From assembly GCA_043767805.1 (NCBI GenBank), contig JAYUGC010000157.1:1-53581 (forward strand): DNA of 53,581 nt. The letters are read 5' to 3'. Origin of the DNA: Pseudomonadota bacterium (GTDB lineage: Bacteria > Bdellovibrionota > FAC87 > UBA2466). Position numbers and translations under genes: made by a program. A model generated the notes under the pieces. That model was given only the letters and a program-made list of their open reading frames with translations, did not search any database and had not been told where the DNA came from. Numbering within the stretch: position 1 is the first letter of the stretch; each line of letters opens with the position of its first letter. Positions 3,488-50,390 of the stretch are shown here, in pieces.

Positions 3488-3527
3488 CATTCAGTACCCA
3501 TTCAGTACCCATTCAGTACCCATTCAG
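3488..3527. repeat. 11-bp tandem repeat (CATTCAGTACC)x3.6
   Basis: Exact copies at 3488, 3499 and 3510, plus a partial copy at 3521. Confidence 0.95.
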
Positions 3528-3791: not shown

Positions 3792-3871
3792 TCAATCCCC
3801 CAAAAATAAATAGGTTCAGAATGATTGTGCGCGAGGCTGAGCTCCGCTCGGAGTAACTTAAGTCGGGAGAT

Positions 3872-17999: not shown

Positions 18000-18019
18000 G
18001 AAGGAAGCGAGGAACCCCT

Positions 18020-18370: not shown

Positions 18371-18377
18371 GTAGCCT

Positions 18378-26307: not shown

Positions 26308-27480
26308 TTAAGAGGGGTCGGCGAGGGCGCCCAGGAAGAGTAGGGTGCCGGTGGCGGTGTCCCAGATGGCGTATAGAAAGGGGCGGTCGAAGCTCACGTC
26401 GAAATCGACTTGAGGCATTCCGGTGGCCCGCATGCCGAAGACGGTGGTGGCCGCGGCCTCGGTGCTCTTCTCGTTGACCTCGATGAAGGTTTTCTGAGAA
26501 GCGCTGTCGATGGCCAAAGGTTCCGCGCTCATCTTGCTGAAATTCGCGCTGTCGGTAAACGCCGTCTTCATGCCCATGGCGGCGAGTACTTTGTCGATTT
26601 CGACATCGCTCGCCGACTTCCACTTGGGAAAGCTTACGTTTCCGCTTTTGGCGTCAGCGCTCTTCAGGCTTTTCACGATACCTTCCAGGCCCGCAGGCGT
26701 TAGGCTCTTCTCGAAATCCCGTAGGGCTTTGCCTTTTACAGGGAGCAGGGCGAATAGACTCGCTTCGCCCTTTCCATAGGGAAGCTCGATGGCTTCATAG
26801 TCGGTTCCCTTCACGTATCGGAAAGACGCCATATTGTGCATCATGGGCACATCGGTCACTTTACCGTCGGTCTTGGTGAACTTGCCCGGCTCCGTGCGGT
26901 GCTCCGGGAACGGAGTTTCCCAGGTGCCTTTGAAATAAGTAGCGTTCATCAATAGCGCGCGCTGCTTCGGGGTCACCTTGTCCGATATCTTTTCAATTTT
27001 GCCGTGAGTCTTTTCTTTCACCCAGTTATCCAAAAACGCGGCGGTTTTGGGATCCGAAAAGTCCTTCGTCTCGATGAGGGCCTGATAGGCCTTGCGGAGG
27101 GTTTTCGAGAAAGCAGGTTTGAACGAAAAGCCCTTATTGGCGACGAGAGCGTTGGCGATGTCGAGCTCGACGCCCGATCGCTTCGAGGTAAGGGATTTCA
27201 TCAGCTTTGCGTTAGCCTTGTTCAATGCTTCCACCAAGATGCCCTTCGATCCGAGGACTCCCGCTATTTCGGCTTTGGTCGCTTTGTCGGCGCCGTTATA
27301 GACGAGAGATAACGCAAGATAGGCCGACAGGGGCGAGACCATGAGGTTCGTCTTTTCGGGGTAGGTCTCTCGGAGACGTTTGTACAATTCCAGACCGAAA
27401 TCGTTTTGCGCCACCGAACTTGCCGCGTGGGCTTGCGTGATTAGGGCACCCATCAGGAACGCTCCCGCGATTTTTTTCAT
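26308..27480 (-). CDS. Secreted serpin (serine protease inhibitor)
   Basis: NLMVSPLS, WVKEKTHGKI, LMNATYFKGTW, VPMM, hinge VNEKSTEAAA and FDRPFLYAI motifs. Confidence 0.97.
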   Translation of the reverse strand: MKKIAGAFLMGALITQAHAASSVAQNDFGLELYKRLRETYPEKTNLMVSPLSAYLALSLVYNGADKATKAEIAGVLGSKGILVEALNKANAKLMKSLTSKRSGVELDIANALVANKGFSFKPAFSKTLRKAYQALIETKDFSDPKTAAFLDNWVKEKTHGKIEKISDKVTPKQRALLMNATYFKGTWETPFPEHRTEPGKFTKTDGKVTDVPMMHNMASFRYVKGTDYEAIELPYGKGEASLFALLPVKGKALRDFEKSLTPAGLEGIVKSLKSADAKSGNVSFPKWKSASDVEIDKVLAAMGMKTAFTDSANFSKMSAEPLAIDSASQKTFIEVNEKSTEAAATTVFGMRATGMPQVDFDVSFDRPFLYAIWDTATGTLLFLGALADPS

Positions 27481-30602: not shown

Positions 30603-30931
30603 TAGATCGTGATCCCCTTGCCCCCTATCACTGCAAGGGCGGGGCCCCACTTGCGCCCTCACGAAAAACCCCGAATACACGGGCCGGAAATTTCCCCAAC
30701 CCTAGTATTCACGCGACTCCATAAAGGGTTTTCGTTCCAGCTACTTTGCCGTGGGCCCGGTGGATGGAATACGGACGGTTGCCTGAAACCTCCTCAGTTT
30801 AGTGGTGCTCCGAGTCAGGCTCTAAGGCCCCGTATACAGTCAGAAAAGGGCGAAGACTGAGAGAGTATTGAGCGTTGCTTCGACGGGGCCTCACCTGCTG
30901 GGCCGGGAATACCGAAACAGTGAGTGGAGCC

Positions 30932-31927
30932 ATGAAGCCATCCAACCCCATAGTCTCGGTCATGTTCGTCGACATCGTCGGCTTTTCCATTTCGGCGGAA
31001 AAGATGCCGGCAGACGAAGTGTTTCAGAGACTTCGGTCGCTGCTCTCCGAGCTCACCGAGATCGTGAAAAAGAACGGCGGCATCCTCGACAAGACCATCG
31101 GCGACGGATTTCTCTGCTTCTTCGGTTGCGGCTACGACGGAAAGATCACCTCCGATCGCCACGCCGACCAGGCCATTCGTTGTGCTTGCGAGATGCAGCG
31201 GCTAGCGGCCACTCGCGTACTGCAGTCGAAAGATTCCCAAGATCCGGTTTATCCGCTGCGCATCGGGATTAACACTGCTCCCGTTTTCATCGGGAACATG
31301 GGAACGGCGAAAGACGCCGATTTCACTTTGATCGGCCACGGCGTGAACATCGCTCAGCGCCTCGAGTACGCGTGCGAGAGTTTCCGCGTGATGATGTCGG
31401 CGACGACCCTTGGTGCCTGGGCCCAGTTCGGCGGCGGCTCGGTACGCATCCATAAGCGGCAAGTGCAGATGAAGCACCGCGAGACCATCTTCGAGGCTTT
31501 CGAACTGGATCCTTTCGAGGCGGAGCCCGAGATTTTGAAAGAAGCCGTGGCGCTATACCGCGAGCGAGTCGGTTTTCGCCGCAAAGAAAACCGCGAAGAG
31601 CTTGGCCGGGGGATTTCCATCTCCGTGCATCCCGAGCGAGTCGAAGCGACACTCGTCAATTATTCCCGCTCGGGACTCGCTCTGAAGACTCCGACTTATT
31701 TTTCGCGGGGAACGACGCTGTCGCTCAGTCTCGATTCCACCTCGAAGCGCTTGGCGGCCATTTGCCGTAAGTACAAGGTCGCGCCCATTCTGACGGGAGA
31801 GGTGCGCTGGGGCGTTCCCGCGGGGGACGATTACCTGCATGGCATCGAGCTGTCCCGCCTTACCGACGAAGGCCGCGACGCGCTTTTCGCCGCGCTCAAA
31901 GAGTATCTCGACGTCTCTTCAAAGTAG
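30932..31927 (+). CDS. Class III adenylate cyclase fused to a C-terminal PilZ domain
   Basis: Cyclase motifs FVDIVGFS, DKTIGDG, LRIGIN and DFTLIGHGVNIAQRLE; PilZ motifs RRKENR (RxxxR) and NYSRSG, plus GEVRW...GIEL. Confidence 0.85.
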   Translation: MKPSNPIVSVMFVDIVGFSISAEKMPADEVFQRLRSLLSELTEIVKKNGGILDKTIGDGFLCFFGCGYDGKITSDRHADQAIRCACEMQRLAATRVLQSKDSQDPVYPLRIGINTAPVFIGNMGTAKDADFTLIGHGVNIAQRLEYACESFRVMMSATTLGAWAQFGGGSVRIHKRQVQMKHRETIFEAFELDPFEAEPEILKEAVALYRERVGFRRKENREELGRGISISVHPERVEATLVNYSRSGLALKTPTYFSRGTTLSLSLDSTSKRLAAICRKYKVAPILTGEVRWGVPAGDDYLHGIELSRLTDEGRDALFAALKEYLDVSSK

Positions 31928-35200: not shown

Positions 35201-35246
35201 ATATTAATAAAATATAATTTACGGGTTAATTGTATACTATTAATAT
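35201..35246. promoter_or_regulatory. AT-rich inverted repeat (candidate operator) between divergent genes
   Basis: ATATTAATAAAATATAATT (35201-35219) versus AATTGTATACTATTAATAT (35228-35246): 16/19 complementary with an 8-nt spacer. Confidence 0.55.
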
Positions 35247-35253
35247 AGCCGTC

Positions 35254-36078
35254 ATGGTCGTCTCCCTCTTCAGCGCCTCCGATTACCGAGCCGCCGTCCA
35301 GTCCGCCATCGAGCGGGTGCGGTTTCATAAGCCTCTGAGCTACGCCCAGCTCGCCCGCCAAAGTGGAGTCCAGGCCACCTACTTTTCGAACGTGCTTAAA
35401 AACCGCGCGCATTTTAATGCCGATCAGCTTTACCGCGTCGCCCGGGCGCTGGAAGTTTCCGAGAGCGAGCTCGAGTTCATTTCGCTACTGCTCGAATGGG
35501 AGCGCTCCGCTGAGAAGGAGCGAAAGCGTGAGCTCAACCGGCGGCTCGAAACTATACGTGAGGAAAACCTCTCGACCGGCCGTCACCTTTCCGCGAAGCG
35601 TGTCGCGCCGGAAGACGTGTCGGGCGCGGAATATTATTTGGACGCTCTGGCTACAGTGGTTCACGTCTATCTGGGCATGGAACGCTACGCAAAGGATCCC
35701 AAGCTCATCGCCGAGGCTTTGAAAATTCCGGCGGAATATCTAGGACGTCTTCTCGGCACCATGGCGCGGCTCGGCTACATCGAGCCCAAAGGCACGGGTT
35801 ACGTAGTGCGCCTAAAGCATCGTCATCTTCCCGACGATTCGCCGCTTTGCCTTCCTCACCAAGCTTTGATGCGCGCGCGAAGTCTCGAGCAGTTTCAAAG
35901 ACTGCCTCGGGGGAAGCGATACGGCGTATCCGTGACTTTTTCGGCCACTCCTGACACCAAGGCGCGCATTCAAGCCGAGTTCCTGGATTTTTTGAAACGC
36001 GCCGAGTCTCTGGTCGGCGCGAGCCGCGAGACCCACGTCTTTCAGATGAACTTCGATCTCTTTCCCTGGCTCGATTGA
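35254..36078 (+). CDS. TIGR02147/DUF4423-type HTH protein
   Basis: N-terminal HTH (SYAQLARQSGVQATYFSNVLK); C-terminal ...VFQMNFDLFPW signature. Confidence 0.85.
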   Translation: MVVSLFSASDYRAAVQSAIERVRFHKPLSYAQLARQSGVQATYFSNVLKNRAHFNADQLYRVARALEVSESELEFISLLLEWERSAEKERKRELNRRLETIREENLSTGRHLSAKRVAPEDVSGAEYYLDALATVVHVYLGMERYAKDPKLIAEALKIPAEYLGRLLGTMARLGYIEPKGTGYVVRLKHRHLPDDSPLCLPHQALMRARSLEQFQRLPRGKRYGVSVTFSATPDTKARIQAEFLDFLKRAESLVGASRETHVFQMNFDLFPWLD

Positions 36079-39155: not shown

Positions 39156-39989
39156 ATGCTTGAGACAGTGCCACAGGCCGCGCCCGCCGAGATGTTAAGG
39201 CGTGCGCTCGTGAACCGAGTCTCCCGCAACCCCTCTTATTCGTTGAGAGCTTTCGCCCGCGACCTCGGTGTTAGCCACGCGTATCTGAGCATGGTTTTGA
39301 GCGGTAAACGGCCGGTTCCAGTCAAACGGGCCTTCCATTTCAGCCAGACGGTCGGCCTCGGCCAGGAAGAAACCTTGGCCTTTCTCGCTTCCTGCCGGAA
39401 GGCGCATTTCGACGCCAAACCGGAGTTAGCGAAGCCCGCGTCGCCCAAAGAGCCGCGAGCCGTCACCGGCGACGAGTTCTTTCGCGTTCAGCTAGATCAG
39501 TTCAAGGTGCTCTCCGAGTGGTATCACCTGGCGATTTTGGACCTCACGCTTTTGGACGGGTTTGAGCCCAGCGAGCGTTGGGTTGCTGACCGCCTTGGGC
39601 TGACTCTGGAAGAAGTGCGTGGCGCCGTCGCTCGCTTGAAACGCCTCGGCCTTCTCAGCATCACCAGGGGCCGCTGGATAAAGCGGCACAAGACAATCGC
39701 AGTGCCCACCGCTCAGTCGCATCAAGCGGTCCGCCGCTTTCATCAGCAGATGATCGAAAAAGCCCTCGAAGCCTTGAGCTCCGGGACCCAGGAAGATTTT
39801 GAGCGACGAGACATTACGGGAACGACCATGGCGATCAATCCCGCGCGCCTCGCGGAAGGGAAGAAACGCATCCAGCGCTTTCGCCGCTCTCTTTTGAAAT
39901 ATCTCACTCGAGGCGAGTGCACGGAGCTTTATCAGATGAACGTTCAGATTTTTCCGCTGACCAAGCCATCGAAACGGAGTCCTTCATGA
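39156..39989 (+). CDS. TIGR02147/DUF4423-type HTH protein
   Basis: RNPSYSLRAFARDLGVS HTH; SEWYHLAIL, RRFHQQM, RDITGTT and LYQMNVQIFPL motifs. Confidence 0.9.
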   Translation: MLETVPQAAPAEMLRRALVNRVSRNPSYSLRAFARDLGVSHAYLSMVLSGKRPVPVKRAFHFSQTVGLGQEETLAFLASCRKAHFDAKPELAKPASPKEPRAVTGDEFFRVQLDQFKVLSEWYHLAILDLTLLDGFEPSERWVADRLGLTLEEVRGAVARLKRLGLLSITRGRWIKRHKTIAVPTAQSHQAVRRFHQQMIEKALEALSSGTQEDFERRDITGTTMAINPARLAEGKKRIQRFRRSLLKYLTRGECTELYQMNVQIFPLTKPSKRSPS

Positions 39990-41254
39990 AGACGTCAGTC
40001 TTGTTCTTCCTGCTGCTCGCGGGTTGCACCCGGGCTCCCATCGTGGTCCTAAACGAAGCGCCTCGCGTTCCCGCGCCTCAGCTCATCGGCGGCGGTTCGG
40101 ACGTCGGCAGTGGCGGCGACAACCAGGCGCCCGACCATCTCGCGGCTTGGTTTATCGGCAAGGAGCGCGTGATCAAGGCGTGCGTCGAAACCTCTACGGA
40201 TTTTGGCGTCAGCTCAACGGTCGCTCACGACACGATTCTCACCGCCTTTACGCAATGGAAATATTACATCGAGGGGCACGGAGTGTGGGCCACTGAGCCG
40301 GTGGCGAAGCAACTGAGTACGTCGGTCGATCTCAAGGATGGCTGCGATGGCTCCGCTGACATTTCGTTTTTTCTTGGCGTCGAGAACGAGACCGTGAGAG
40401 CGGCTAAGGGACAGTTCAATAATCCCACGGCTTTCATTCAAAGAACTTCTTTCGATCCCGCCGTGGCTTTGGAAAAAGGTTTTGTGTGGGTGTCTCGCCA
40501 TGGGGGCGTCAAATCCGGTTTTCCCGATTGGAAGCAAGACGGAAGGCTTCTCACTATTTTAGAGCATGAACTGGGACACGTTTATGGCAACGATCACGTG
40601 CCCGGAACGGTCATGGCAGAGAACATCAGCGGACTTTTCGCTACCGAGTGGGCTGGCGAGGCCTTGGCCGAGATCGATCATTGCCGGGAGCTGGCGCCTT
40701 GTATCGACTGCGATTATGGCATCCAGCTAGATCCCAGGAGCGTCGACAACGAGAAGACGTCGTTTCTGAGAAAAATTCTGGGGGCCAAGGCCGAAGGACC
40801 TTTGACACTGAAACTAAGCCGCACGGGTATGTACGGATCGTTCTTGGGACTCGGCATGCAGGAAGAAAGCAATCTCACGACTCATAGCAATTACCTGCTG
40901 GCGAATCGCAATACGCATCCTGCTTTTTCGACCGAGTTGGCGACCTTCAAGCGGTTCATCGAGGGAAGAGTTACCAGTGGCTCGGATGTCTCGAGCATTC
41001 AGTATTCGACGGTGATACAAAACAAGAACGGTGCCTTGGATTCGGTCGGGATGATCATCATCGAGTACAACCTCGCCACTTGCGGTAGCTATTGGTCCGA
41101 GGGCAGGTATCCCGTGGAGGTTTCCTACGTCGAGGACGACGAGCAAAAGCCTCTGGGCTCCTTCGCTGATGTCTGGCGGCGGACTCCCGGTATGGTGCCA
41201 ATCTACCCGATTTTTATCGACCAGCCTTCAGAACTGAAAACCGAAGGAAAGTGA
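39986..41254 (+). CDS. Lipoprotein metzincin-type zinc metalloprotease
   Basis: Lipobox LLAG-C; HELGHVYGNDH (HExxHxxGxxH) followed by Met-turn TVM; ATGA overlap with the regulator gene. Confidence 0.8.
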   Translation: MKTSVLFFLLLAGCTRAPIVVLNEAPRVPAPQLIGGGSDVGSGGDNQAPDHLAAWFIGKERVIKACVETSTDFGVSSTVAHDTILTAFTQWKYYIEGHGVWATEPVAKQLSTSVDLKDGCDGSADISFFLGVENETVRAAKGQFNNPTAFIQRTSFDPAVALEKGFVWVSRHGGVKSGFPDWKQDGRLLTILEHELGHVYGNDHVPGTVMAENISGLFATEWAGEALAEIDHCRELAPCIDCDYGIQLDPRSVDNEKTSFLRKILGAKAEGPLTLKLSRTGMYGSFLGLGMQEESNLTTHSNYLLANRNTHPAFSTELATFKRFIEGRVTSGSDVSSIQYSTVIQNKNGALDSVGMIIIEYNLATCGSYWSEGRYPVEVSYVEDDEQKPLGSFADVWRRTPGMVPIYPIFIDQPSELKTEGK

Positions 41255-41968
41255 CAGGGAAGGGAAGATCGGAAAGCGCGACCGTAGGTCGGCGGAAGCG
41301 AGAGTTCCCTGTTGCGTAAGGTCGTTTTGAAATTGCGACAAAGCTTCCTGATTGCCGGCGGAGCCCCCGACTCCGTCGGGGATGAGAGCGTTCACCGTCA
41401 CGCTCGTCCTCAATGGCCCGATCCAGGACGCCCCCAAGCAAATGTTGGCGAAAAAGAATCGCCCCATGAAAAGGTAGCCTATGGAAACTGTGGGCACTGC
41501 TTGCTTGAAGACCACGTCAGCCGTCACCAAGGCTCCGACTAACATTTCCGACACGGCGGAGTTCTCCAGGCCAGAGGTGATGTGGGCGTTCATTTGCAGC
41601 AGCGAATAGGTGAGCTGGAAGTAGAAGTTATTTTCCGCCGGAAAGAAGCGCACGAACGCGGAGATATAGTTGGCCGTGGGGACCAGGGTGGGTGAGGTCG
41701 CGTAGTTGAGTCCATCAGCGAGCGTGATGGTGGTCGGTTCTCCCGTCATGGTCTTTCCCAGAAAACCATTAGGCGGAAGGTAGGAATAACCGACGCCGAA
41801 CTGCCAGCGCTTCATTGCCTGCACTTGCCCGTGTAAGAAGAGCAGCTCCGGCAAGCCCAAGCCGACATCGAAGGAAAGCGCTCTATCGGGGATGGCGAAG
41901 GCGGATCGGTGCATCAAGAGCATCGATAACGCAGCGAGTGAAAGCCATTTACGGAGAACCAACGCCAT
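41228..41968 (-). CDS. Outer-membrane beta-barrel protein, divergent from the motor operon
   Basis: AGGAG RBS; signal ...HRSAFA; amphipathic strands; C-terminal SLSFGFQF (BAM-type terminal Phe). Confidence 0.75.
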   Translation of the reverse strand: MALVLRKWLSLAALSMLLMHRSAFAIPDRALSFDVGLGLPELLFLHGQVQAMKRWQFGVGYSYLPPNGFLGKTMTGEPTTITLADGLNYATSPTLVPTANYISAFVRFFPAENNFYFQLTYSLLQMNAHITSGLENSAVSEMLVGALVTADVVFKQAVPTVSIGYLFMGRFFFANICLGASWIGPLRTSVTVNALIPDGVGGSAGNQEALSQFQNDLTQQGTLASADLRSRFPIFPSLSLSFGFQF

Positions 41969-42100
41969 CGTTCTCCTATCGGACATTCGGGCCATTCCCC
42001 AATTGTTAAGTCTTCTCCATTTTTGACCGATGGAATGCTGAAGGCCCCCATGGGTCCTTCTTTTGCTGACGAGGCGCATTAAGCACCTCGAGAACCACGG

Positions 42101-43072
42101 ATGGGATTTATGTCAGGCAAGCGACTTCTCATGATGGCGGTAGCCATCTTCGCGCTAGCACAAGGAGTGAGCGCCTTCGCGCGCGCGCCGGAAGAGGCGG
42201 AGTTCTCCGCGGCCGCGGGCATCGGCGAGGACATCGCTCACTGGATCAAAAAGCTCGAGACCACCGACCACAAGATCGATTCTGTCGCGCTATTTTCCGT
42301 GAACGCCAACGAGCCTTTCGACGGCACTTTCAGCACCATCATTGAGACTGAGATCATGAAGTATCTCGCCAGACAGGGCATCCATAAGGTGTCGGCCTGC
42401 GCGGAATGCAAAACGGCGCAAGTTCAGATCAAGGGAAACGAAGTCGTCGTCACCAAAGGCGCGGCCGATATCGAGGCGGTCAAGAAAGCCGGAAAGAAGC
42501 TTCCCGTCGACACCTTACTAGTCGCCGAGATTTATAGAACGAAGCTGAATCTGCTCGCGCAAGCGACCCTTTATTCGAATACGGACGGAAGCCTCGTGGG
42601 CGCCGAGCGTTTCCAGGTTCCCGCTTTGAATTTTTCCGATAGCTCGGTTCAGTTACTCATTACCTTTGGATCCGGCATTCCCATGTTCAAGGGTGGCGCG
42701 GCTTCGGGCGCGGCGACCCTCACGACTTCCGTCAACATTCAGCTCGCCGAAGAGCTGGGCTTTGCCAAAGGTGGCCTCAATCTAGGCATGGTCTCGGCCA
42801 CCGGAAACACCTTGATCCATTTAGATCCGACTCTCTCCTTTCGCGGAAGATTCGGAAACTCGTCGTTAGGCTGGTCCCTCAACGTCGGACTTGGCTATGG
42901 CATGCTCGCGAGCCTCAAGGGGCCCACGGCGAGACTCAGTTACGAGCTCTTCCTGGGATCTTGGGCCGTGGCTGGATTTGACGGAGTTTACTTCTTCTCG
43001 CCAAGTACCGCGACAGCGGGATCGCTTAGCGGTTACGGCGGGCTACACGTGGGGCTGGCACTGGGACGATGA
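42101..43072 (+). CDS. Exported protein: CsgG/FlgO/TolB-N-like alpha/beta domain plus C-terminal beta-barrel-like domain
   Basis: Signal peptide. The pattern SVALF...IETEIMKYL...AVKKAGKKLPVDTLLVAEI...LLAQATLY..TDGSLV resembles the CsgG/FlgO fold, followed by Gly/aromatic alternating strands. Confidence 0.55.
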   Translation: MGFMSGKRLLMMAVAIFALAQGVSAFARAPEEAEFSAAAGIGEDIAHWIKKLETTDHKIDSVALFSVNANEPFDGTFSTIIETEIMKYLARQGIHKVSACAECKTAQVQIKGNEVVVTKGAADIEAVKKAGKKLPVDTLLVAEIYRTKLNLLAQATLYSNTDGSLVGAERFQVPALNFSDSSVQLLITFGSGIPMFKGGAASGAATLTTSVNIQLAEELGFAKGGLNLGMVSATGNTLIHLDPTLSFRGRFGNSSLGWSLNVGLGYGMLASLKGPTARLSYELFLGSWAVAGFDGVYFFSPSTATAGSLSGYGGLHVGLALGR

Positions 43073-43716
43073 AGCACGTACTCACACATTCTCCTCTCAT
43101 CTTGATTTTACTGATGAGTTGCGTCGGCCTTTTGGCCGTGGATGTGCCACTCGTGCCTCCGCCGGACTCGGATGCCGCCCCTGGTTTTTATTCAGTGACC
43201 GAAGAGGAAAATCAGCTCGAGCTGAAAACTCCTTACGGCACGATTCACATTCCCACGGGCTTTGGGGCGAACATGCCTTATCGCCTTTCCATTCCGGTGG
43301 AGCAGCTGAAAAAAGGCGGCACCGTCGTGGAGGACGCCGCCAAGGCGCCCGAGAAAGCGGAAGAGCCTGGAAAAACGGGCCCTGGTGCTGCGCCCACGCT
43401 CTTTCCTGCTCCGAGCCCCGCTTTAGGCATGAATCCTGGCTCTCCGCCGGGCCCGACGACGGTGGTCGTGGATGATGCGGATTCTTTGGTCGTCGATGCG
43501 AACCGGCTCTTTAACCGCCGGCGTTTTTACGAAGCGCTCACGGTGGTGGATCAGTTACTGCGTAAGCGTCCCGCCTATACGAGAGGCTGGCTGATGAAGG
43601 GAAGCTTACTCCTGGTTCAAGGCCACAAGGAACTGGCGATCAAGGCCTGGTCGAAAGCCAAGGAAATCGAGCCAGAGAACCAGGAAGTTTTGAGCGTTTT
43701 AGAAAAGTATAAATGA
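43069..43716 (+). CDS. Exported (possibly lipo-) protein with Pro-rich linker and C-terminal TPR
   Basis: Hydrophobic N-terminus with LMS-C; TPR ANRLFNRRRFYEAL...GWLMKGSLL...AIKAWSKAKEIEPEN. Confidence 0.7.
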   Translation: MKHVLTHSPLILILLMSCVGLLAVDVPLVPPPDSDAAPGFYSVTEEENQLELKTPYGTIHIPTGFGANMPYRLSIPVEQLKKGGTVVEDAAKAPEKAEEPGKTGPGAAPTLFPAPSPALGMNPGSPPGPTTVVVDDADSLVVDANRLFNRRRFYEALTVVDQLLRKRPAYTRGWLMKGSLLLVQGHKELAIKAWSKAKEIEPENQEVLSVLEKYK

Positions 43717-45404
43717 AGGCGCTTCTTTTCATTTTAACGCTTGGCTCACTCGCGCTCGGGGCGGAGTCTCCTTATTTGGTGGAAGCGCGCGTACGTACCG
43801 ATCTGGAAGCGTTGCTCTCTCGCATGATCCCTGCCGAGCAGTATCTCCTACAGGTAAATGCCGAAGTGCGCGTCGATCAAGAGCGTAAGATGGTCGAAGG
43901 CGAAGAGAGCCAAGACGTCGAGGCGAAGCTTGCCGCGGCGCCCGATCCGATGCCAGGTTTCGTGCCGGAGACGCCCGAGGCACCTCCCGCGCCGGGTAAG
44001 CATCAGCGCAATGTGTACCGCTCGGTCGAAACGCCGGTGCTCGCTTCCATAAGAGTCAACGTGGGCCTCGATCAGCAGCTCGCTCCCAAAGTGGCGACGC
44101 AGGCCAAGAACCTGATCCAAACTTATCTTTTCTCGAACTATCCGAACTTGGTGCGGTTGGGCTTCATGGAAGTCGCCATGCTCAAGCCGAAAAAGGATAA
44201 GGCCATCACGCCGACCACTCCCGCGCCGCTCGAAGAGGAAGGGGAAGAAGAGTCGCTTACGGACATGGCGACGAAGTACTTCCCCTGGATTGTGCTCGCC
44301 GTCGTTGGTCTTTTCCTGCTTTTACGCCGTCGTTCGGAGCCGAAAGCCGCAAAAGCTCCCGCGCCGGCCCGGCCGCGCTGGAGTACCCAAGGCCCGCGCC
44401 CGGTTGCTCCGAATTATAGGCAGCCCGCGCCTTATCAACCGCCTCCGCAAGCGATTCCCTCTCCCGCAGCCCATTCTCCTTTCGCCTCCAGCGCTTCGGC
44501 TAGCCACTCCGCCCGCACCCGGTTTCTCGATAAAGTCATCTCTCACGGCAACGCGTTTCGCTCGTACTACGAAATGCTGACTCCCGAGCTTCGCTCCGAG
44601 ATAGAGGCAATTTTGGGCGGTCCCGCTTTTGAAAGTGTCATGGAATCGGTAAGCACCGAGCGTCCGCAGCCGGGCGGCTCAAGTGGCGACGTCGAAGAGA
44701 TGGCGCTCGCCTACGAAGCTCAGTTCAATGAGTTCGTTCAGGCGAAGCTTTCTCAAGACAAACAGTTTTTTGGTTTCTTGAATCAGCTGACCCGCGAGCA
44801 AGTGGCTTCCTTGATGACCTTCGAGAACGACATCACCGTGTGCTTGATGCTTCGGTTCATGAAGCCCGTGCAATGCGCGGCCGTGCTGGACAGCCTCACG
44901 CCCCAGCGGCGCCAAGCCATTCTGTCTCGCTTGGACGAGGCGCAGCGAATTCCGCTCTCAGAGATTTCAGCCATCGAAAAAGAAGTGCGCGAGGCCGTGC
45001 GGCGATTGCCCTCTTACGCCATCGGGCCTGGTCCCTCGCAGGTCGATTTCTGGGCCAATGTGCTCAGTGAGTCGAGCCATCAAGCAGAGATCTTGCAGGA
45101 TCTTGAGAAGACCAATCCCGGTATTTCTCCGTCGCTGCAAAAGTTCAAGTTCTCCCTCGAGGATGCGGCTACTTTGCCCGACGATTTCCTGAAGCGCGTC
45201 ACGTCTGAAATCGACAACGAAGAGCTGGCACTCGCGCTCACGACCTGCTCCAAAGACGTGGCGGAAGTGGTCTTGAGCTCTCTGCCCGATCGCCGCAGCA
45301 ATTTACTCAAGGCCCAGATGAACTCCGCTCGTTCCGCTCCGCGGGATAAAGCGTCCCGGGCGAGAAACACGTTCACGAAGAAAATTCGGGAGGCGATGGC
45401 CTAA
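43713..45404 (+). CDS. Natural FliF(RBM3/S-ring)-FliG fusion protein
   Basis: Signal peptide; FliF-C-like region (LEALLSRMI...QVNAEV...MPG...IRVNVGLD); one TM; FliG-M-like FGFLNQL..EQVASLM.FENDITVCLML; FliG-C aligns gaplessly by eye to E. coli EVDSESLLIALKG...NMSQRAADIL. Confidence 0.8.
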   Translation: MKALLFILTLGSLALGAESPYLVEARVRTDLEALLSRMIPAEQYLLQVNAEVRVDQERKMVEGEESQDVEAKLAAAPDPMPGFVPETPEAPPAPGKHQRNVYRSVETPVLASIRVNVGLDQQLAPKVATQAKNLIQTYLFSNYPNLVRLGFMEVAMLKPKKDKAITPTTPAPLEEEGEEESLTDMATKYFPWIVLAVVGLFLLLRRRSEPKAAKAPAPARPRWSTQGPRPVAPNYRQPAPYQPPPQAIPSPAAHSPFASSASASHSARTRFLDKVISHGNAFRSYYEMLTPELRSEIEAILGGPAFESVMESVSTERPQPGGSSGDVEEMALAYEAQFNEFVQAKLSQDKQFFGFLNQLTREQVASLMTFENDITVCLMLRFMKPVQCAAVLDSLTPQRRQAILSRLDEAQRIPLSEISAIEKEVREAVRRLPSYAIGPGPSQVDFWANVLSESSHQAEILQDLEKTNPGISPSLQKFKFSLEDAATLPDDFLKRVTSEIDNEELALALTTCSKDVAEVVLSSLPDRRSNLLKAQMNSARSAPRDKASRARNTFTKKIREAMA

Positions 45405-46180
45405 TGATTACGCGCATGCTCGGCTTTTGCGGGGTGGTCACTTGCCTCTGGATCGTCTTCGAGTTCGAAGGAACGTCGGACGCCGTGGGCATTCTCCGCC
45501 TGTTTCACTGGCCCGCCATGGTGCTGACTGGCCTGGGTCCCGTGGCCTTAGTATTTCTCTGCTTTGACGCTGGCGAGGTTTTTAAAGCGTTCGGCATGGC
45601 GCTCTTCAAATCGCCCGGCCGGCTCAAAAAGAAAACGCAAAAAGAAGCGCTCTTCCTCCACGAGCTGGGTAAATCGTTCTATGACGGCGGTCAGCGCGCT
45701 TTCGACTCGGCCAAAGTGAAAGGCCTCACTCCTTTCGTGGAGAGAATCGTCGAACGGCTTTCGCTACGCATGCCCACCCCGGACATCCGCGATCTATCGA
45801 TGATCGATCAGGGTCGGCGCGAGGCGGAGCTGGTGCAAGCGGTCAACGTAATCAGCTCGGCCGTTCGCTTGACGCCTTCCATCGGCATGCTCGGGACCAT
45901 CATGGGCATGGTGCGCCTGCTTTCCACCTTGGAAGATCCGTCCAAGATCGGATCCAGCATGGGTCTCGCGCTTCTCACCACGTTCTACGGCCTTTTCTTT
46001 TCACTCGCTATCTGGACCCCGGTTCAGCAAAAGATTGAGCGCCTGCTCTCCATCGAGATGCACGGCTACGATCAGTCGCTTCGTTGGCTCGAGCTTCTGG
46101 AGAAGCGCAAGCCCACGTCCTACTTCGCCGATACGGCGGAGATTACCGACGATAAACCGAAGCAGAAGCGTGCGGCTTGA
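45404..46180 (+). CDS. motA: MotA/PomA-family stator subunit A
   Basis: Four-TM layout. TPSIGMLGTIMGMVRLLSTLEDPSKIGSSMGLALLTTFYG matches PomA/MotP TM3-TM4. Confidence 0.9.
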   Translation: MITRMLGFCGVVTCLWIVFEFEGTSDAVGILRLFHWPAMVLTGLGPVALVFLCFDAGEVFKAFGMALFKSPGRLKKKTQKEALFLHELGKSFYDGGQRAFDSAKVKGLTPFVERIVERLSLRMPTPDIRDLSMIDQGRREAELVQAVNVISSAVRLTPSIGMLGTIMGMVRLLSTLEDPSKIGSSMGLALLTTFYGLFFSLAIWTPVQQKIERLLSIEMHGYDQSLRWLELLEKRKPTSYFADTAEITDDKPKQKRAA

Positions 46181-46830
46181 TGCGCAGGTACCTTCGCAGA
46201 CGCCGCAAGGAAGAAAGCGGAGAATTTCTCTGGCTCGTCTCCCTAAGCGATTTGATGATTCTCCTCTTCATCTTTTTCGTAACCCTTTACAGCTTTGCCG
46301 CGAAGAAGATGAAGCAAACGGACATCATGAACATCCTCTCCGCCTTGGGAAACCGGCAGGTGAAGGATCCGGTCGGAGACATCCAAGGTAACGTCACGCA
46401 ATGGATCAAGAAGAGCGGTCTGGAGAATCAGATCGTGGTGAAGCGCAAGGACGGCGAGCTATTCGTCGAAGTTAAGGATCAGGTCTTCTTCACCAGCGGC
46501 AGGTTTCAGCTGCACGAGCAGGGAAAGAAGATTCTCTCTTCTCTGTCAAAGGCCTTGGGTAAGGTTCCCGCTCCCTATCGCATTGGCATCGAAGGCCATA
46601 CGGACGATACGCCGATTCATACCGGCTCCGTGAATAACAACTGGGACTTGTCCGCGAAGCGCGCGCTTTCCGTACTTGGCTCGCTCGAGCTTCCCGAAGA
46701 CGTCTCGAAACGTACCGTCATTCTCGCCTATGGGTCCAATCAGCCCCTCGTCGCCAACCGCGATAAGCAAGGGCGGCCCATTCCCGAAAATCAAAGCAAG
46801 AACCGCCGGGTCACTTTTAAGTTCTTTTAG
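46180..46830 (+). CDS. motB: MotB/PomB-family stator subunit B with OmpA-like peptidoglycan-binding domain
   Basis: TM WLVSLSDLMILLFIFFV with the conserved Asp; IEGHTDD, NWDLSAKRA and NRRV motifs. Confidence 0.92.
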   Translation: MRRYLRRRRKEESGEFLWLVSLSDLMILLFIFFVTLYSFAAKKMKQTDIMNILSALGNRQVKDPVGDIQGNVTQWIKKSGLENQIVVKRKDGELFVEVKDQVFFTSGRFQLHEQGKKILSSLSKALGKVPAPYRIGIEGHTDDTPIHTGSVNNNWDLSAKRALSVLGSLELPEDVSKRTVILAYGSNQPLVANRDKQGRPIPENQSKNRRVTFKFF

Positions 46831-46832
46831 GC

Positions 46833-46871
46833 AAAAAAAGCGGGGGAAGAAGCTTTCGCCCCGTCCCCCGC
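46833..46871 (-). terminator. Rho-independent terminator
   Basis: Minus strand reads GCGGGGGACGGGGC-GAAA-GCTTCTTCCCCCGC-TTTTTTT, between convergent genes. Confidence 0.8.
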
Positions 46872-46881
46872 CTAAAGAGAA

Positions 46882-47472
46882 TTACTTCGCTTTGTTGTAC
46901 GCGATTTCCATCGACTTGAACTCTTTGCCGTCCGTGTCTTTGGTCCACATGGAGTAGTTCATGTGCGTCTTGTCGGCGAAAACCCATTCCGCGCGGTAGG
47001 TGCGGGCTTTGTCGCCCGTCATCGGGCAGCTGAACTCGCCATTTTCCTTGATCGTCTTGCTGGCCGTATCGTAGGTGCCTTGGCCCTGCACCATTCCCGT
47101 GCCCATGCTGTCCATCCAGGTCGATTGGAAGGCTTGCTTCAAGTTGTCGAAACCGATGAAGCCCATGCCTTCAAAGGGCTTGCCCATGGCTTTGCCTTTG
47201 AATTCCTGCATGAGGAAACGGCCGCCGAGCACTTTCTTCATCGTACTGGTGCCCTTGGACTCTTCCGGCTTAGCTTCGGACGTCTGCCACATCTTCGAGG
47301 TGTAGTTCCATTTGCCGGCGAGATCGCCGAGCATTTTGTGGGACTCACCCGGGGTGGAGTATTGGGTCCAAGCCTTCATGGCTTCTTGCATCTTGGTGTC
47401 GCTGGTTTGGGGGGTGTCGGCCGCGAAAGCGGGGAGCGCGAAGAGCGTGAGAGCAATGAGTAACTTCGTCAT
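46882..47472 (-). CDS. Secreted DUF1579-like protein
   Basis: Signal peptide; TPGESHKML..LAGKW, LGGRFL, PFEGMG..GFDN and WMDSMGTG motifs. Confidence 0.85.
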   Translation of the reverse strand: MTKLLIALTLFALPAFAADTPQTSDTKMQEAMKAWTQYSTPGESHKMLGDLAGKWNYTSKMWQTSEAKPEESKGTSTMKKVLGGRFLMQEFKGKAMGKPFEGMGFIGFDNLKQAFQSTWMDSMGTGMVQGQGTYDTASKTIKENGEFSCPMTGDKARTYRAEWVFADKTHMNYSMWTKDTDGKEFKSMEIAYNKAK

Positions 47473-47620
47473 GGTTGAACTCCTTCAAAGGTTTAAACAG
47501 CGGCCGGAGTGTACCAATGCTTTGCGGGAAATTGTATTCGTTTCCGCGGAGATTCATGGGTGTCAGCGTCAAGAAGCTTGAATGTCGGCGAGCGAAGAGA
47601 GAACATAACTTCACTTCCTC

Positions 47621-48804: not shown

Positions 48805-50390
48805 ATGTGGTTTGTATATGCATTCTCCGCTTTCCTCGTCGCCGTTGCCCTGCACGATCTCTTTCAGAAAAAACACGCCATTCTCCGAAACTTTCCAGTG
48901 GTGGGGCACTTTCGTTACTGGCTCGAAAACCTGGGGCCGGAGCTTCGCCAGTACATCATCGCCAATAACCGCAAGGAACGCCCTTTCGATAGGGATCAGC
49001 GAAGCTGGATCTACGCCTCCGCAAAGAAAGAGAACGACTACGTCGGTTTCGGTACCGACGAGGAGCTGGAAACCTCTCCCAACTACATCATCATCAAGCA
49101 ATCCGCTTTTCCCTTGAGTGAGGTTTTGCCCTCCGAGCCGAATTACGATCCGACCTATCAGATTCCATGCGCAAAAATACTCGGCGGGTATCGCAAACGC
49201 CGCCTCGCCTTCCGGCCGAAATCTATCATCAATATTTCCGCGATGAGCTACGGGTCTTTGAGCGATCACGCCGTGCAGGCCATCAACTTAGGCTGCAAAC
49301 AGGCAAATGCTTTGCACAACACCGGGGAAGGTGGCGTGACTCGCTTTCACGCGCTCGGCGGCGATCTCATTTGGCAAATAGGGACGGGATATTTTGGCTG
49401 CCGGGACGAGAAGGGTGGATTCGATAAGGAACGCTTCAAAGACAAGATCGCTCGCTACCCCATTAGGGCCATCGAGATTAAATTGAGCCAGGGCGCGAAG
49501 CCCGGACTGGGTGGTGTGCTGCCCGCGGCGAAAGTGACGCCGGAGATTAGCGAGATCCGCGGTGTTCCCGTCGGCAAAGACTGTATCAGTCCAGCCCATC
49601 ATTCCGCATTTAGAAATGTCGATGAGCTTCTGGATTTCGCGGAGACCTCGCTGAGATGTCTGGCTTGCCCGTTGGCATCAAGTCAGCCATCGGACATCGC
49701 GCTTTCTGGAACGAGCTCGCGGTGCGGATGAGTAAGACGGGCCGCGTGCTGGACTTCATTACGGTCGACGGCGGCGAAGGAGGCACGGGCGCGGCTCCCC
49801 TCGTGTTTACGGATCACGTCTCACTCCCCTTCAAGATGGGCATGAGCCGCGTGTACCGCGAGATGGCCGAGAACGATCTGCACCAGAAGCTCGTTTTCAT
49901 CGGGTCCGGTAAGCTTGGGTTCCCCGAAGCTTCGTTATTCGGATTCGCGCTCGGCTGCGATTTAATCAATATCGCGCGAGAGGCGATGCTTTCCATTGGC
50001 TACATCCAAGCCCAGAAGTGCCAGACGAATCGTTGTCCCACGGGAGTCGCGACCCAAGACAAGTGGCTGATGCGCGGGCTAGACCCCGAGCTGAAGTCGG
50101 CGCGGCTAGCCAACTACTTGACGGTGCTTCGCAAAGAGATCCTGCGCCTCAGCCGGGCGTGTGGCGTCTCACACCCCGCCTTGGTGACAAGCGAGTGCAT
50201 CGAGATCATCAACGAGCGCTTTCAAGGGACATCCATCGGCGATCTCTTCGGGTATCGCGATGAATGGAGCGTGCCTTCGGAGAAGGATATCGCCGGCATC
50301 ACCGCCTTGATGGAGCATCCGCACGTCATCGCCAAGCCGCGAGGAGCGCCGGCCATCGAAGATACGGCGCCCGTCCCCCACCAGGAGTAG
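48805..50390 (+). pseudogene. FMN-binding glutamate synthase family protein, frameshifted near 49646
   Basis: AMSYGSLS, NTGEGG and IKLSQGAKPG lie in one frame; PVGIK, DFITVDGGEGGTGAAP and CPTG lie in another. Adding one C (ACC CTC) restores AETLAEMSGLPVGIK. Confidence 0.85.

What the first reader, a model, noticed from the sequence alone, without database searches (positions are those of the whole stretch)
43713..45404. Natural FliF-FliG fusion reduced to signal peptide + RBM3 + one TM + FliG
Seen: the N-terminus looks like a cleavable signal (MKALLFILTLGSLALG-AE). There is no TM1/RBM1/RBM2 region. About 150 periplasmic residues resemble FliF RBM3 with the beta-collar 'PG' insert, followed by one TM, a Pro-rich linker, a helical region and FliG-M/FliG-C. 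Established: RBM1/2 surround the type III export gate, and FliF-FliG fusion mutants still build working rotors in Salmonella. Inference: loss of exactly the export-gate-housing domains fits a ring that rotates with no T3SS inside it, leaving open what occupies the ring centre.
Basis: partly seen in the sequence, partly recalled or inferred. Interest (0 to 1): 0.85.

Follow-up and report, generated by a model that had tools for sequence, protein, structure and literature searches.

The report
Minimal FliF-FliG rotor with own stator
A Bdellovibrio-like bacterium that already has a normal flagellum also encodes one membrane protein joining the outer ring-building part of the flagellar MS-ring to the torque-receiving protein FliG, in an operon with its own MotA/MotB ion motor and envelope proteins, which looks like an undescribed small motor built from flagellar parts.

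Summary
ORF 43713-45404 (563 aa) has a Sec-type N-terminus and a ~145-aa periplasmic domain. The AlphaFold model of that domain is an alpha-beta-beta-alpha-beta fold with a long hairpin between beta1 and beta2. Its best solved matches are all FliF RBM3/collar rings (Foldseek E 5e-5 to 4e-4; VIA Z 9.5-10.2). One TM, a disordered Pro/Ala-rich linker, a helical region and FliG_M and FliG_C follow, both over Pfam cut-offs.

No RBM1/RBM2 is present. Sequence similarity of the periplasmic domain to FliF is only marginal (hhalign P 0.012-0.05).

The gene sits in a tightly overlapping operon: exported protein, TPR protein, fusion, MotA, MotB. A divergent outer-membrane-barrel gene lies upstream. Synteny is conserved in all 9 related loci fetched.

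The family is small: 102 clusters among 1.84 billion representatives. It was found in 21 of 401 Bdellovibrionota genomes, mostly the window's own family.

Independence from the flagellum is therefore not shown. Ring formation and rotation are untested.

I found no published description. The closest natural case is the Chlamydia FliF-FliG fusion, which has the complementary domains.

This scan has noted the same module before on other DNA.

The parts
41228..41956 (-). Divergently transcribed exported protein (about 242 aa from the Met used here; the ORF is open up to 42079). The C-terminus ends ...SFGFQF, as outer-membrane beta-barrels do. No Pfam family.
   Evidence: Homologue present in the same position in 6 of the 7 related loci with enough upstream flank; L015 has none.
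42101..43072 (+). First gene of the operon: exported 323-aa protein. It has an N-terminal alpha/beta domain with an invariant CxxC, and a Gly-rich C-terminal half. Language-model look-alike clusters carry LpoB, CsgG, TolB_N and OMP_b-brl, which is a lead only.
   Evidence: Conserved upstream of the TPR gene in 8 of 9 loci; the ninth is cut by the contig end.
43069..43716 (+). Exported 215-aa protein with a small N-terminal module, a Pro/Gly-rich linker and C-terminal TPR repeats. It overlaps both neighbours by 4 nt.
   Evidence: Conserved in 9 of 9 loci.
43713..45404 (+). The finding: 563-aa fusion protein (P0001).
43713..43763 (+). Residues 1-17: Sec-type signal peptide (inferred; not an N-terminal TM like FliF TM1).
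   Evidence: Sequence. Uncharged run of 15 residues starting at residue 3.
43764..44192 (+). Residues 18-160: RBM3-like alpha-beta-beta-alpha-beta domain. A beta1/beta2 hairpin extension (collar-like) carries the near-invariant [LM]PGF loop motif at residues 80-83.
44265..44324 (+). Residues 185-204: the single transmembrane helix, periplasm to cytoplasm.
44331..44504 (+). Residues 207-264: disordered linker rich in Pro, Ala and Ser.
   Evidence: pLDDT below 50; poorly conserved columns.
44511..44762 (+). Residues 267-350: conserved helical region in the place of FliG_N. Homology to FliG_N or to the FliF C-terminus is not shown.
   Evidence: FliG_N hit in only 4 of 85 members.
44796..45005 (+). 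Residues 362-431: FliG middle domain.
   Evidence: Pfam PF14841, 26.3 bits against a cut-off of 25; hhalign to canonical FliG.
45099..45398 (+). Residues 463-562: FliG C-terminal (torque) domain with near-invariant R528.
   Evidence: Pfam PF01706, 62.6 bits against a cut-off of 23.3. R528 in 83 of 85.
45404..46180 (+). MotA/PomA-type stator A subunit (258 aa). Its start overlaps the fusion's stop by 1 nt.
46177..46830 (+). MotB-type stator B subunit (217 aa): plug, TM with the conserved Asp (SLSDLM), and an OmpA-like peptidoglycan-binding domain. It overlaps motA by 4 nt.

Best explanation
The protein is the rotor-like subunit of a self-contained stator-rotor module derived from flagellar motor parts. 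The module is encoded apart from the flagellar genes.

Shown:
- The periplasmic domain has the fold of the FliF S-ring unit (RBM3 plus a collar-like hairpin).
- The protein crosses the membrane once and ends in FliG middle and C-terminal domains.
- It is co-transcribed, with overlapping stop and start codons, with a flagellar-type MotA/MotB pair that keeps the channel Asp, the plug and the peptidoglycan anchor.
- It is also co-transcribed with two exported proteins, one of them a TPR protein.

Inferred:
- Copies assemble through the RBM3/collar domain into a ring that places a ring of FliG_C domains under the membrane.
- MotA5B2-type units fixed to peptidoglycan turn on ion flow and push on FliG_C, probably through the near-invariant R528.
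- The movement passes through the single TM to the periplasmic ring. Its invariant [LM]PGF loop engages a periplasmic or outer-membrane partner, with the operon's TPR protein and the two exported barrel-like proteins as candidates.

There is no export gate, rod, hook, FliM/FliN switch or ATPase in the module. The output would therefore be mechanical work in the envelope and not assembly of a filament. What that work is remains unknown.
For: Architecture:
- FliG_C 62.6 bits and FliG_M 26.3 bits, both over their cut-offs.
- Profile-profile match of the family's C-part to canonical Bdellovibrionota FliG: probability 98.8%, E 6.7e-17, 207 columns.
- Foldseek ranks 1-13 of the full model are FliG.

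Periplasmic domain, three lines of evidence pointing the same way:
- All 18 Foldseek matches at E<=1e-3 are FliF entries: 17 MS-ring/S-ring structures and one FliF-YlxF integrative model.
- The top 3 of 48,161 chains by VIA-align are FliF MS-rings.
- The three best named language-model clusters carry PF08345 YscJ_FliF_C, score 0.89.
- In addition, a marginal but colinear hhalign match covers FliF 242-422: P 0.012 to the RBM3 region and 0.048 to whole FliF. Controls gave P 0.10-0.51.

Operon:
- Gene overlaps of 4, 4, 1 and 4 nt.
- The gene order TPR, fusion, MotA, MotB is kept in 9 of 9 related loci, and the exported 323-aa protein in 8 of 9.

Stator type:
- NCBIfam best hits are PomA, MotP and MotA; TolQ and ExbB reach only E 0.07-0.1.
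- All 9 PDB sequence hits are PomA or MotA.
- MotB has a plug (37.6 bits against a cut-off of 24) and an OmpA domain.

Pairing:
- The genome has three flagellar-type MotA genes. One is on the contig that also carries fliF and fliG; the two others each lie next to a membrane-anchored FliG-like gene.
- No flagellar or T3SS gene family was detected among the window ORFs scanned.

Conservation of the whole architecture:
- 80 of 85 full-length family members carry FliG_C.
- The periplasmic domain is always N-terminal.
Against: - Homology of the periplasmic domain to FliF rests on a predicted fold. Pfam YscJ_FliF_C gives nothing at E<=10. The family profile finds no FliF among PDB sequences or among 1.84 billion representatives. 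The hhalign probability is only 1-4%.
- The fold matches have TM-scores of 0.39-0.48 and rmsd mostly above 10 A. The margin over unrelated small alpha/beta folds is about 2 Z units, with OsmC-like proteins at Z 8.0.
- Ring formation and rotation have not been observed.
- The FliG part is atypical. It scores 61.6 bits against the 226.7-bit cut-off of the FliG equivalog. Of the EHPQ part of the EHPQR motif only the E (43/85) and P (44/85) are partly kept. The positions of the acidic pair of the torque helix are mostly S and Q.
- Every carrier genome examined also has a canonical FliF (21 of 21). None of the 8 FliF-less relatives has the module. Distribution therefore does not separate it from the flagellum.
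- B. bacteriovorus is reported to use three MotAB pairs on one flagellum. I saw this only as cited in PMC11323537 and PMC13689555. Whether one of those pairs is the orthologue of this stator was not resolved.
Confidence: 0.5

Rival explanations
1. The module is a flagellar accessory. The fusion and its MotAB work at or around the one flagellar motor, for example as an extra stator set with its own docking protein used under particular loads or life-cycle stages. It would not be a separate machine.
For: All 21 of 21 genomes with the domain have canonical FliF, and 0 of 8 FliF-less relatives have it. B. bacteriovorus HD100 has three motAB pairs said to contribute to rotation of a single flagellum, and motAB1 and motAB2 are missing in some lineages (passages of PMC11323537, PMC11870529 and PMC13689555). 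This genome likewise has exactly three flagellar-type MotA genes.
Against: The operon is not in a flagellar cluster. The fusion has its own membrane anchor and periplasmic ring-type domain, which a C-ring subunit does not need. It lacks the EHPQ residues used to bind FliM. Its periplasmic domain has no detectable sequence similarity to the host's FliF, so co-assembly into the MS-ring is unlikely. None of the best 120 homologues of its MotA carries a B. bacteriovorus label. Most of the phylum is flagellated and the carriers are close kin, so the co-occurrence is weak evidence.
Confidence: 0.2
2. The module is a non-rotary energy transducer. The fusion does not form a closed ring. It acts as a single or few-copy adaptor, as TonB or TolA do for ExbBD/TolQR or GldM for GldL. 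MotAB turns against its FliG_C-like domain, and the force goes through the TM to the periplasmic domain and on to outer-membrane partners.
For: The operon includes exported, outer-membrane-type partners and a TPR protein, as trans-envelope energisers do. The torque-helix charge pattern differs from that of rotors. No oligomer has been shown.
Against: The best structural matches of the periplasmic domain are ring-building units, FliF RBM3 first and then PrgK and SpoIIIAG. The stator is of the flagellar type with a plug, not the Tol/Exb type. FliG_C is known only as a rotor-ring element.
Confidence: 0.2
3. The periplasmic domain is not derived from FliF. It is a convergent small alpha/beta domain, and the protein is simply a membrane-anchored FliG paralogue of unknown use.
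For: No significant sequence match to FliF by HMM or Pfam. hhalign probability is 1-4%. OsmC-like and other ferredoxin-like folds score Z 7-8. The host has two further membrane-anchored FliG/MgtE_N-like proteins whose periplasmic parts are not recognisably similar.
Against: Three different methods put FliF RBM3 first. The weak profile alignment is colinear over the whole RBM3a-collar-RBM3b unit, with the insertion at the same place between beta1 and beta2, and it beats the RBM1/2, FliG and reversed controls. A fusion to FliG, FliF's known partner, fits common descent.
Confidence: 0.2

Closest known systems
Flagellar rotor core: FliF MS-ring (S-ring = RBM3 + beta-collar) with FliG, driven by MotA5B2/PomA5B2
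   Same: The same three functional pieces are present. The RBM3-type domain has a hairpin inserted between beta1 and beta2. FliG_M and FliG_C are present. The stator is of the flagellar type with plug, channel Asp and peptidoglycan-binding domain.
   Different: It is one polypeptide and not two. There is no TM1, RBM1 or RBM2, that is, the parts around the export gate. A signal peptide stands in place of TM1. No recognisable FliG_N or FliF C-terminal helices are present. There is no EHPQ and no acidic pair on the torque helix. No FliM/FliN, export apparatus, rod or hook genes are in the module. The partners are a TPR protein and exported barrel-like proteins.
Engineered or spontaneous FliF-FliG fusions of Salmonella and Vibrio (e.g. 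the S-ring structures 8z4g and 8z4d; PMC11481574, abstract and listing seen)
   Same: FliF and FliG are joined in one chain that still forms rings. These structures are among the best fold matches of the periplasmic domain.
   Different: Those are full-length FliF joined to full-length FliG in a complete flagellum. Here the fusion is natural, lacks two thirds of the FliF periplasmic region, and comes with its own stator.
Natural FliF-FliG fusion of Chlamydiaceae (Bergeron 2016, PMC4768692; abstract and passages read)
   Same: A natural single protein with FliF-type periplasmic RBM domain(s), a membrane anchor and a cytoplasmic FliG-like part, in a setting without a full set of flagellar genes beside it.
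   Different: The domain choice is complementary. The chlamydial protein (~330 aa) keeps RBM2 plus one further RBM, has two TMs, lacks the SpoIIIAG-like RBM3, and carries only a FliG_M-like region. It is thought to work with the injectisome. The present family keeps only RBM3/collar, has FliG_M plus the torque domain FliG_C, and has a dedicated MotAB.
SpoIIIAG (sporulation channel ring; PDB 5wc3)
   Same: An RBM fold with a beta insertion that builds a vertical barrel. It is a weaker fold match (Foldseek E 1e-2).
   Different: It has no FliG, no stator and a different insertion. It ranks clearly below FliF.

Membership tests
FliG (Pfam FliG_N/FliG_M/FliG_C; NCBIfam TIGR00207) | FliG C-terminal (torque) domain | tested here: met
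   PF01706: 62.6 bits against a cut-off of 23.3, residues 463-562. Present in 80 of 85 family members.
FliG (Pfam FliG_N/FliG_M/FliG_C; NCBIfam TIGR00207) | FliG middle domain | tested here: met
   PF14841: 26.3 bits against a cut-off of 25. Present in 60 of 85 members. hhalign to canonical FliG 112-323, E 6.7e-17.
FliG (Pfam FliG_N/FliG_M/FliG_C; NCBIfam TIGR00207) | FliG N-terminal domain that binds the FliF C-terminus | tested here: inconclusive
   No Pfam hit in P0001. FliG_N hit in 4 of 85 members. Region 258-352 has no significant or colinear hhalign match to FliG_N or to the FliF C-terminus.
FliG (Pfam FliG_N/FliG_M/FliG_C; NCBIfam TIGR00207) | Score over the equivalog cut-off (true FliG orthologue) | tested here: not met
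   TIGR00207: 61.6 bits against a cut-off of 226.7.
FliG (Pfam FliG_N/FliG_M/FliG_C; NCBIfam TIGR00207) | EHPQR motif of FliG_M (FliM binding; motif name recalled, position taken from the alignment to the host's FliG) | tested here: not met
   At the EHPQ columns: E in 43 of 85 and P in 44 of 85; the H column is mostly N/S and the Q column mostly L.
FliG (Pfam FliG_N/FliG_M/FliG_C; NCBIfam TIGR00207) | Charged residues of the torque helix (E. coli R281, D288, D289, as named in PMC12505986) | tested here: inconclusive
   R528 is present in 83 of 85 and lies at, or one residue from, the Arg position. The columns aligned to the acidic pair are mostly S (40/85) and Q (52/85). The alignment register is uncertain by one residue.
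FliF (Pfam YscJ_FliF + YscJ_FliF_C) | RBM1/RBM2 (YscJ_FliF domain) | tested here: not met
   No hit. The conserved domain starts right after the signal peptide. PF01514 finds only the canonical FliF in this genome.
FliF (Pfam YscJ_FliF + YscJ_FliF_C) | Sequence match to YscJ_FliF_C (RBM3/collar) | tested here: not met
   No Pfam hit at E<=10. PF08345 finds only the canonical FliF in G000. hhalign P 0.012-0.048 only.
FliF (Pfam YscJ_FliF + YscJ_FliF_C) | RBM3 fold: alpha-beta-beta-alpha-beta with a long beta insertion between beta1 and beta2 | tested here: met
   AF2 model elements H6-19, E27-44, E84-103, H108-125, E130-137. FliF S-ring chains are the best matches by Foldseek and by VIA-align. 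This rests on a predicted model and not on a solved structure.
FliF (Pfam YscJ_FliF + YscJ_FliF_C) | Two TM helices flanking the periplasmic region | tested here: not met
   One TM-strength segment, residues 185-204. The N-terminal hydrophobic stretch is 15 residues long, of signal-peptide type.
FliF (Pfam YscJ_FliF + YscJ_FliF_C) | Assembly into a ring of about 33-34 subunits | not testable with these tools
   Needs EM of the purified protein or large-oligomer modelling.
Flagellar stator MotAB/PomAB | MotA_ExbB channel domain nearest to flagellar-type models | tested here: met
   PF01618: 65.1 bits. Best NCBIfam hits are PomA, MotP and MotA at E 3e-17 to 2e-5, against TolQ/ExbB at 0.07-0.1. 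All are below the equivalog cut-offs. PDB sequence hits are PomA or MotA only, 9 of 9.
Flagellar stator MotAB/PomAB | MotB plug, TM Asp, OmpA-like peptidoglycan-binding domain | tested here: met
   PF13677: 37.6 bits against 24. PF00691: 52.9 bits against 27.2. The Asp within the conserved L[SA]DLM TM motif is kept in the window and in all 9 loci (SLSDLM in 8, SLADLM in L014).
MgtE intracellular N domain | Score over the Pfam gathering cut-off | tested here: not met
   24.9 bits against a cut-off of 25.9, on the stretch that FliG_M also covers. There is no MgtE channel part.

The most novel reading that the evidence does not exclude
A free-standing rotary engine of the cell envelope made of flagellar parts. 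A ring of RBM3/collar-TM-FliG subunits would be spun by its own MotAB units, with no export gate, rod or switch. Its conserved periplasmic [LM]PGF loops would drive a TPR and outer-membrane assembly. It would be the first flagellar-type rotor known to turn something other than a flagellum, and a living example of a minimal rotor-stator core of the kind invoked in models of flagellar origins.
Probability: 0.35. Interest if true: 0.9.

Novelty: new variant of a known kind. Interest (0 to 1): 0.78.

Why it matters
The flagellar motor is the only known machine in which MotAB-type stators turn a FliG ring, and FliF and FliG have been studied almost only inside complete flagella.

This family is a conserved natural protein that keeps just the S-ring unit and FliG. 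It is coupled to a private stator and to envelope proteins. That offers three things:
- a much smaller system in which to study how RBM3 rings and FliG rings assemble and take up torque;
- a test of whether the rotor-stator core can work without the export apparatus, which bears on how the flagellum evolved;
- a candidate for an unknown motility, secretion or envelope function in predatory Bdellovibrio-like bacteria.

The same genome carries two further membrane-anchored FliG-like genes, one of them with its own stator. Such modules may therefore be a broader, overlooked class.

Tried and rejected
Oligomer prediction: four copies of residues 18-162 with the family alignment gave no verdict (score 0.27, mark 0.42). 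It says nothing either way.

Profile of the periplasmic domain against PDB sequences: no FliF, only three chance-level rows at E about 1.

Pfam at E<=10 on residues 1-196 and 197-346: nothing relevant.

Pfam and PDB-sequence searches of the neighbour families, the 323-aa exported protein and the divergent barrel: no family.

Apparent split of the gene in locus L015: it is a run of N in the record and not a natural split.

Promoter and terminator scan of 41100-47600: 0 promoter-like sites, and terminator-like sites at the shuffled expectation (8 against 8.4). Uninformative.

Expression: no RNA holder is listed among the public runs. The four holders are DNA runs of one sediment study, two of them possibly the source of this DNA.

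Taxon names for distant family members: two cluster look-ups of 10 proteins each returned no organism names.

Orthology to B. bacteriovorus HD100 motAB1/motAB2:
- Morehouse et al. 2011 (PMC3028683) is not held.
- A search for the neighbouring locus tags found nothing relevant.
- The supplements of PMC11323537 held as text gave only primers.
- The best 120 MotA homologues carry no B. bacteriovorus label, and 61 further hits were not listed.
This remains unresolved.

Charge pairing between the MotA loop and the FliG_C helix: the phmmer alignment to PomA in the loop is of too low confidence to assign R90/E98 equivalents. I make no claim on it.

Link between this family and the host's two other FliG-like membrane proteins: BLAST and hhalign were not significant.

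Literature: searches found no description of an RBM3-only FliF-FliG fusion with its own MotAB. The library lacks most subscription journals, so this is not proof of absence.
Full report
THE GENE AND ITS PARTS

- Pfam places FliG_C at residues 463-562 (62.6 bits, cut-off 23.3) and FliG_M at 362-431 (26.3 bits, cut-off 25). MgtE_N falls just under its cut-off on the same stretch as FliG_M (24.9 against 25.9).
- The N-terminal 196 residues and the linker have no Pfam match even at E<=10.
- The N-terminus is MK followed by 15 uncharged residues ending ALG|AE. This is short for a membrane helix and typical of a Sec signal. In 85 family members the median length of this run is 15. Cleavage itself is inferred.
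- The only TM-strength segment is 185-204. Basic residues are enriched after it, mean 2.9 K/R in the next 12 residues against 1.6 before. Residues 18 to about 180 are therefore periplasmic and the rest cytoplasmic.

THE PERIPLASMIC DOMAIN

With the 19-sequence family alignment, AlphaFold2 gives mean pLDDT 73.4. It predicts helix 23-36, strand 44-66, a low-confidence loop, strand 97-120, helix 125-142, strand 147-154, a TM helix 182-205, disorder at 207-264, and helices from 267 to the end.

Modelled alone with 9 sequences, the domain reaches pLDDT 76.8 with the order H-E-E-H-E. This is the ring-building-motif topology with a long beta1/beta2 hairpin.

Structure comparisons:
- Foldseek against the PDB returns 18 matches at E<=1e-3 and all are FliF entries: 17 MS-ring/S-ring (RBM3/collar) structures and one FliF-YlxF integrative model. 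E runs from 5.1e-5 to 4.0e-4 and TM from 0.39 to 0.48. PrgK (2e-3), OsmC-like proteins (6e-3) and SpoIIIAG (1e-2) follow.
- VIA-align against 48,161 representative chains, which does not rely on Foldseek, puts three FliF MS-ring entries first. The values are Z 10.2 (rmsd 10.3, 124 aligned), Z 9.9 (10.7, 127) and Z 9.5 (3.1, 88). The next row is an OsmC-like protein at Z 8.0.
- The language-model atlas, queried with residues 18-165, lists as its three best named clusters ones carrying PF08345 YscJ_FliF_C, at score 0.89.

Sequence evidence is weak:
- The family profile finds no FliF among PDB sequences.
- PF08345 finds only the canonical FliF in this genome.
- hhalign of the 85-sequence family profile against 23 Bdellovibrionota FliF sequences gives P 0.012 for the RBM3 region. 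Against whole FliF it gives P 0.048, where the alignment is colinear, family 5-140 to FliF 242-422.
- Controls gave P 0.23 (RBM1/2), 0.10 (FliG) and 0.28 and 0.51 (reversed) (similar).

The loop at the tip of the hairpin carries the best conserved motif of the whole family: P81 84/85, G82 85/85, F83 84/85. The weak alignment sets it against the conserved LPG of the FliF collar.

I conclude that an RBM3/collar-like domain is likely, at about 75-80%, and that common descent from FliF is plausible but not proven.

THE CYTOPLASMIC PART

- The family's C-terminal 300 residues match canonical FliG of the same phylum. With 85 sequences the probability is 98.8% and E is 6.7e-17, P0001 350-560 to FliG 112-323 of 342. 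With 19 sequences the probability is 97.5% and E 6e-12.
- Foldseek ranks 1-13 of the full model are FliG structures.
- 80 of 85 full-length members carry FliG_C, 60 FliG_M and 4 FliG_N.
- The conserved helical region 267-350 stands where FliG_N would be, but shows no significant match to FliG_N or to the FliF C-terminal helices.
- It is not an orthodox FliG. It scores 61.6 bits against the 226.7-bit equivalog cut-off. Of EHPQ only E (43/85) and P (44/85) are partly kept. The columns aligned with the acidic pair of the torque helix are mostly S and Q. One Arg, R528, is almost invariant (83/85) at, or one residue from, the torque-helix Arg.

A FliM/FliN switch is therefore unlikely to bind, and the contact with the stator must differ in detail from that of flagella.

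CONTEXT

The gene overlaps its neighbours by 4 nt upstream and 1 nt downstream. The upstream and downstream gene pairs also overlap by 4 nt each. Five genes therefore form one operon:
- an exported 323-aa protein with an invariant CxxC; its look-alike clusters carry LpoB, CsgG, TolB_N and OMP barrel families, which is a lead only;
- an exported TPR protein;
- the fusion;
- MotA;
- MotB.

A divergently transcribed exported protein ending in GFQF lies upstream.

In the 9 related loci fetched from species-representative genomes, all labelled as Bdellovibrio-like or unclassified MAGs, synteny is as follows:
- TPR, fusion, MotA and MotB are syntenic in 9 of 9.
- The 323-aa gene is present in 8 of 9; the ninth locus is cut by the contig end.
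- The divergent gene is present in 6 of the 7 loci with enough flank.

The stator is of the flagellar kind:
- Best NCBIfam hits are PomA, MotP and MotA, with TolQ/ExbB at E 0.07-0.1.
- All 9 PDB sequence hits are PomA or MotA.
- MotB has a plug, the channel Asp and an OmpA-like domain.

No flagellar or T3SS gene family was detected among the other window ORFs scanned.

THE HOST GENOME

The genome has a canonical FliF and FliG on contig 38 and FlhA on contig 185.

Of its 8 MotA/ExbB-family genes, five are TolQ/ExbB-like and three are flagellar-type:
- one on contig C38, the contig that also carries fliF and fliG;
- the one in this operon;
- one on contig 50.

The contig-50 stator also follows a membrane-anchored FliG-like gene, P0023 of 752 aa. 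A third such gene, P0024 of 617 aa, lies on contig 91 behind a TPR gene. P0023 and P0024 are 36% identical to each other but are not detectably similar to P0001 outside the shared Pfam families.

DISTRIBUTION

- The word-based search found 19 close homologues, all 552-613 aa.
- The exhaustive profile search with the periplasmic domain found 102 representative clusters among 1.84 billion. The domain is always at the N-terminus and most proteins are 525-640 aa. None has the layout of FliF.
- In whole genomes the domain was found in 11 of 31 relatives, all in the window's own family.
- It was found in 21 of 401 Bdellovibrionota genomes: 14 of 33 in the same family plus the window's genome, and 6 elsewhere, three of them weak.
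- All 21 carriers have a canonical FliF. None of the 8 FliF-less relatives has the domain.

Because most of the sample is flagellated and the carriers are kin, this is weak evidence for a functional link. It does mean that "a rotor without a flagellum" is not shown by distribution.

WHAT IT MOST LIKELY IS

The best reading is a self-contained rotor-stator module made of flagellar parts. An S-ring-like periplasmic ring is joined through one TM to a FliG ring, driven by its own MotA5B2-type units. It would pass force to periplasmic or outer-membrane partners through the conserved loop.

The shown steps are the domain composition, the topology, the operon and its conservation, and the stator type. 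Ring assembly, rotation and the output are inferred.

The rivals are:
- a flagellum-associated accessory;
- a non-rotary, TonB-like adaptor;
- a periplasmic domain that is only convergent with RBM3.

The first rival gains weight from reports that B. bacteriovorus uses three MotAB pairs on one flagellum and that two of them are missing in some lineages (passages in PMC11323537, PMC11870529 and PMC13689555). The primary paper was not available, and I could not establish whether those pairs correspond to this operon.

COMPARISON WITH WHAT IS KNOWN

The closest systems are the flagellar FliF/FliG/MotAB core and the engineered FliF-FliG fusions whose S-ring structures are the best fold matches.

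The only natural FliF-FliG fusion I found in print is that of Chlamydiaceae (PMC4768692, passages read). It keeps RBM2 plus one RBM, has two TMs and only a FliG_M-like part, and lacks the SpoIIIAG-like RBM3. The present family is its complement and adds FliG_C and a stator.

Six literature searches gave no description of this architecture. The library lacks most subscription journals.

Earlier notes of this scan describe the same kind of module on other DNA with the same reading. They are not independent evidence.

VERDICT

This is a new variant of a known kind (flagellar rotor-stator parts in a new, reduced and fused arrangement), with a real chance of being a new kind of envelope motor.

Noticed in passing
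L048 (G000 contig C50) 915-5553 and 6267-9998: A second module in the same genome. P0023 (752 aa, 2616-4874, minus strand) has an N-terminal hydrophobic segment, a periplasmic region, a TM and a cytoplasmic FliG_C/MgtE_N-like part. It is followed by a flagellar-type MotA (1767-2588) and a MotB with plug (915-1748). Divergently upstream lie a small TPR protein, a 211-aa ORF and a protein of more than 1244 aa with FN3 domains. Its homologue family is small: 17 hits including P0023 itself, hits of 559-752 aa.
   Followed up: partly
L049 (G000 contig C91) 4842-7915: A third membrane-anchored FliG/MgtE_N-like protein, P0024 (617 aa), 36% identical to P0023 over its cytoplasmic part. It is preceded by a 196-aa TPR protein and followed by a 207-aa ORF without a Pfam family. 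No MotA/ExbB match was found on this contig. Its periplasmic part has the same predicted order of elements as P0001, but the similarity is not significant.
   Followed up: partly
window 48805-50390: The Glu_synthase domain (PF01645) is split over two overlapping ORFs. Profile positions 66-196 lie in 48805-49731 and positions 220-368 in 49656-50390. This suggests a frameshift, either a sequencing error or a pseudogene.
   Followed up: no
window 30875-31927: A 350-aa protein that joins an adenylate/guanylate cyclase catalytic domain to a PilZ domain.
   Followed up: no
window 12516-20597: A same-strand run of five ORFs. Three are TPR-rich proteins (483, 1092 and 305 aa). A 126-aa ORF without a Pfam hit follows, and then a 739-aa protein whose N-terminus matches FHA and the cytoplasmic domain of the T3SS inner-membrane protein YscD (PF16697, E 4.4e-12).
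   Followed up: no
window 26308-27480: A full-length bacterial serpin (PF00079, E 5e-104) next to an OPT oligopeptide transporter.
   Followed up: no
window 35230-36078 and 39156-39989: Two DUF4423 (HTH-containing) proteins flank an 802-aa sulfotransferase-domain protein. Only the closest relative (L008) shares the second DUF4423 gene and the 445-aa ORF upstream of the module.
   Followed up: partly
window 42398-42409 (residues 100-103 of the 323-aa protein): An invariant CxxC pair (C100, C103) in all 9 aligned homologues of the operon's first gene. It may be a periplasmic disulfide or a metal site.
   Followed up: no
L015 about 4080-4110: The related locus L015 has a short run of N inside the fusion gene, which makes it look split into a 132-aa ORF and a 413-aa ORF. 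This is an artefact of the record and not a natural split.
   Followed up: yes
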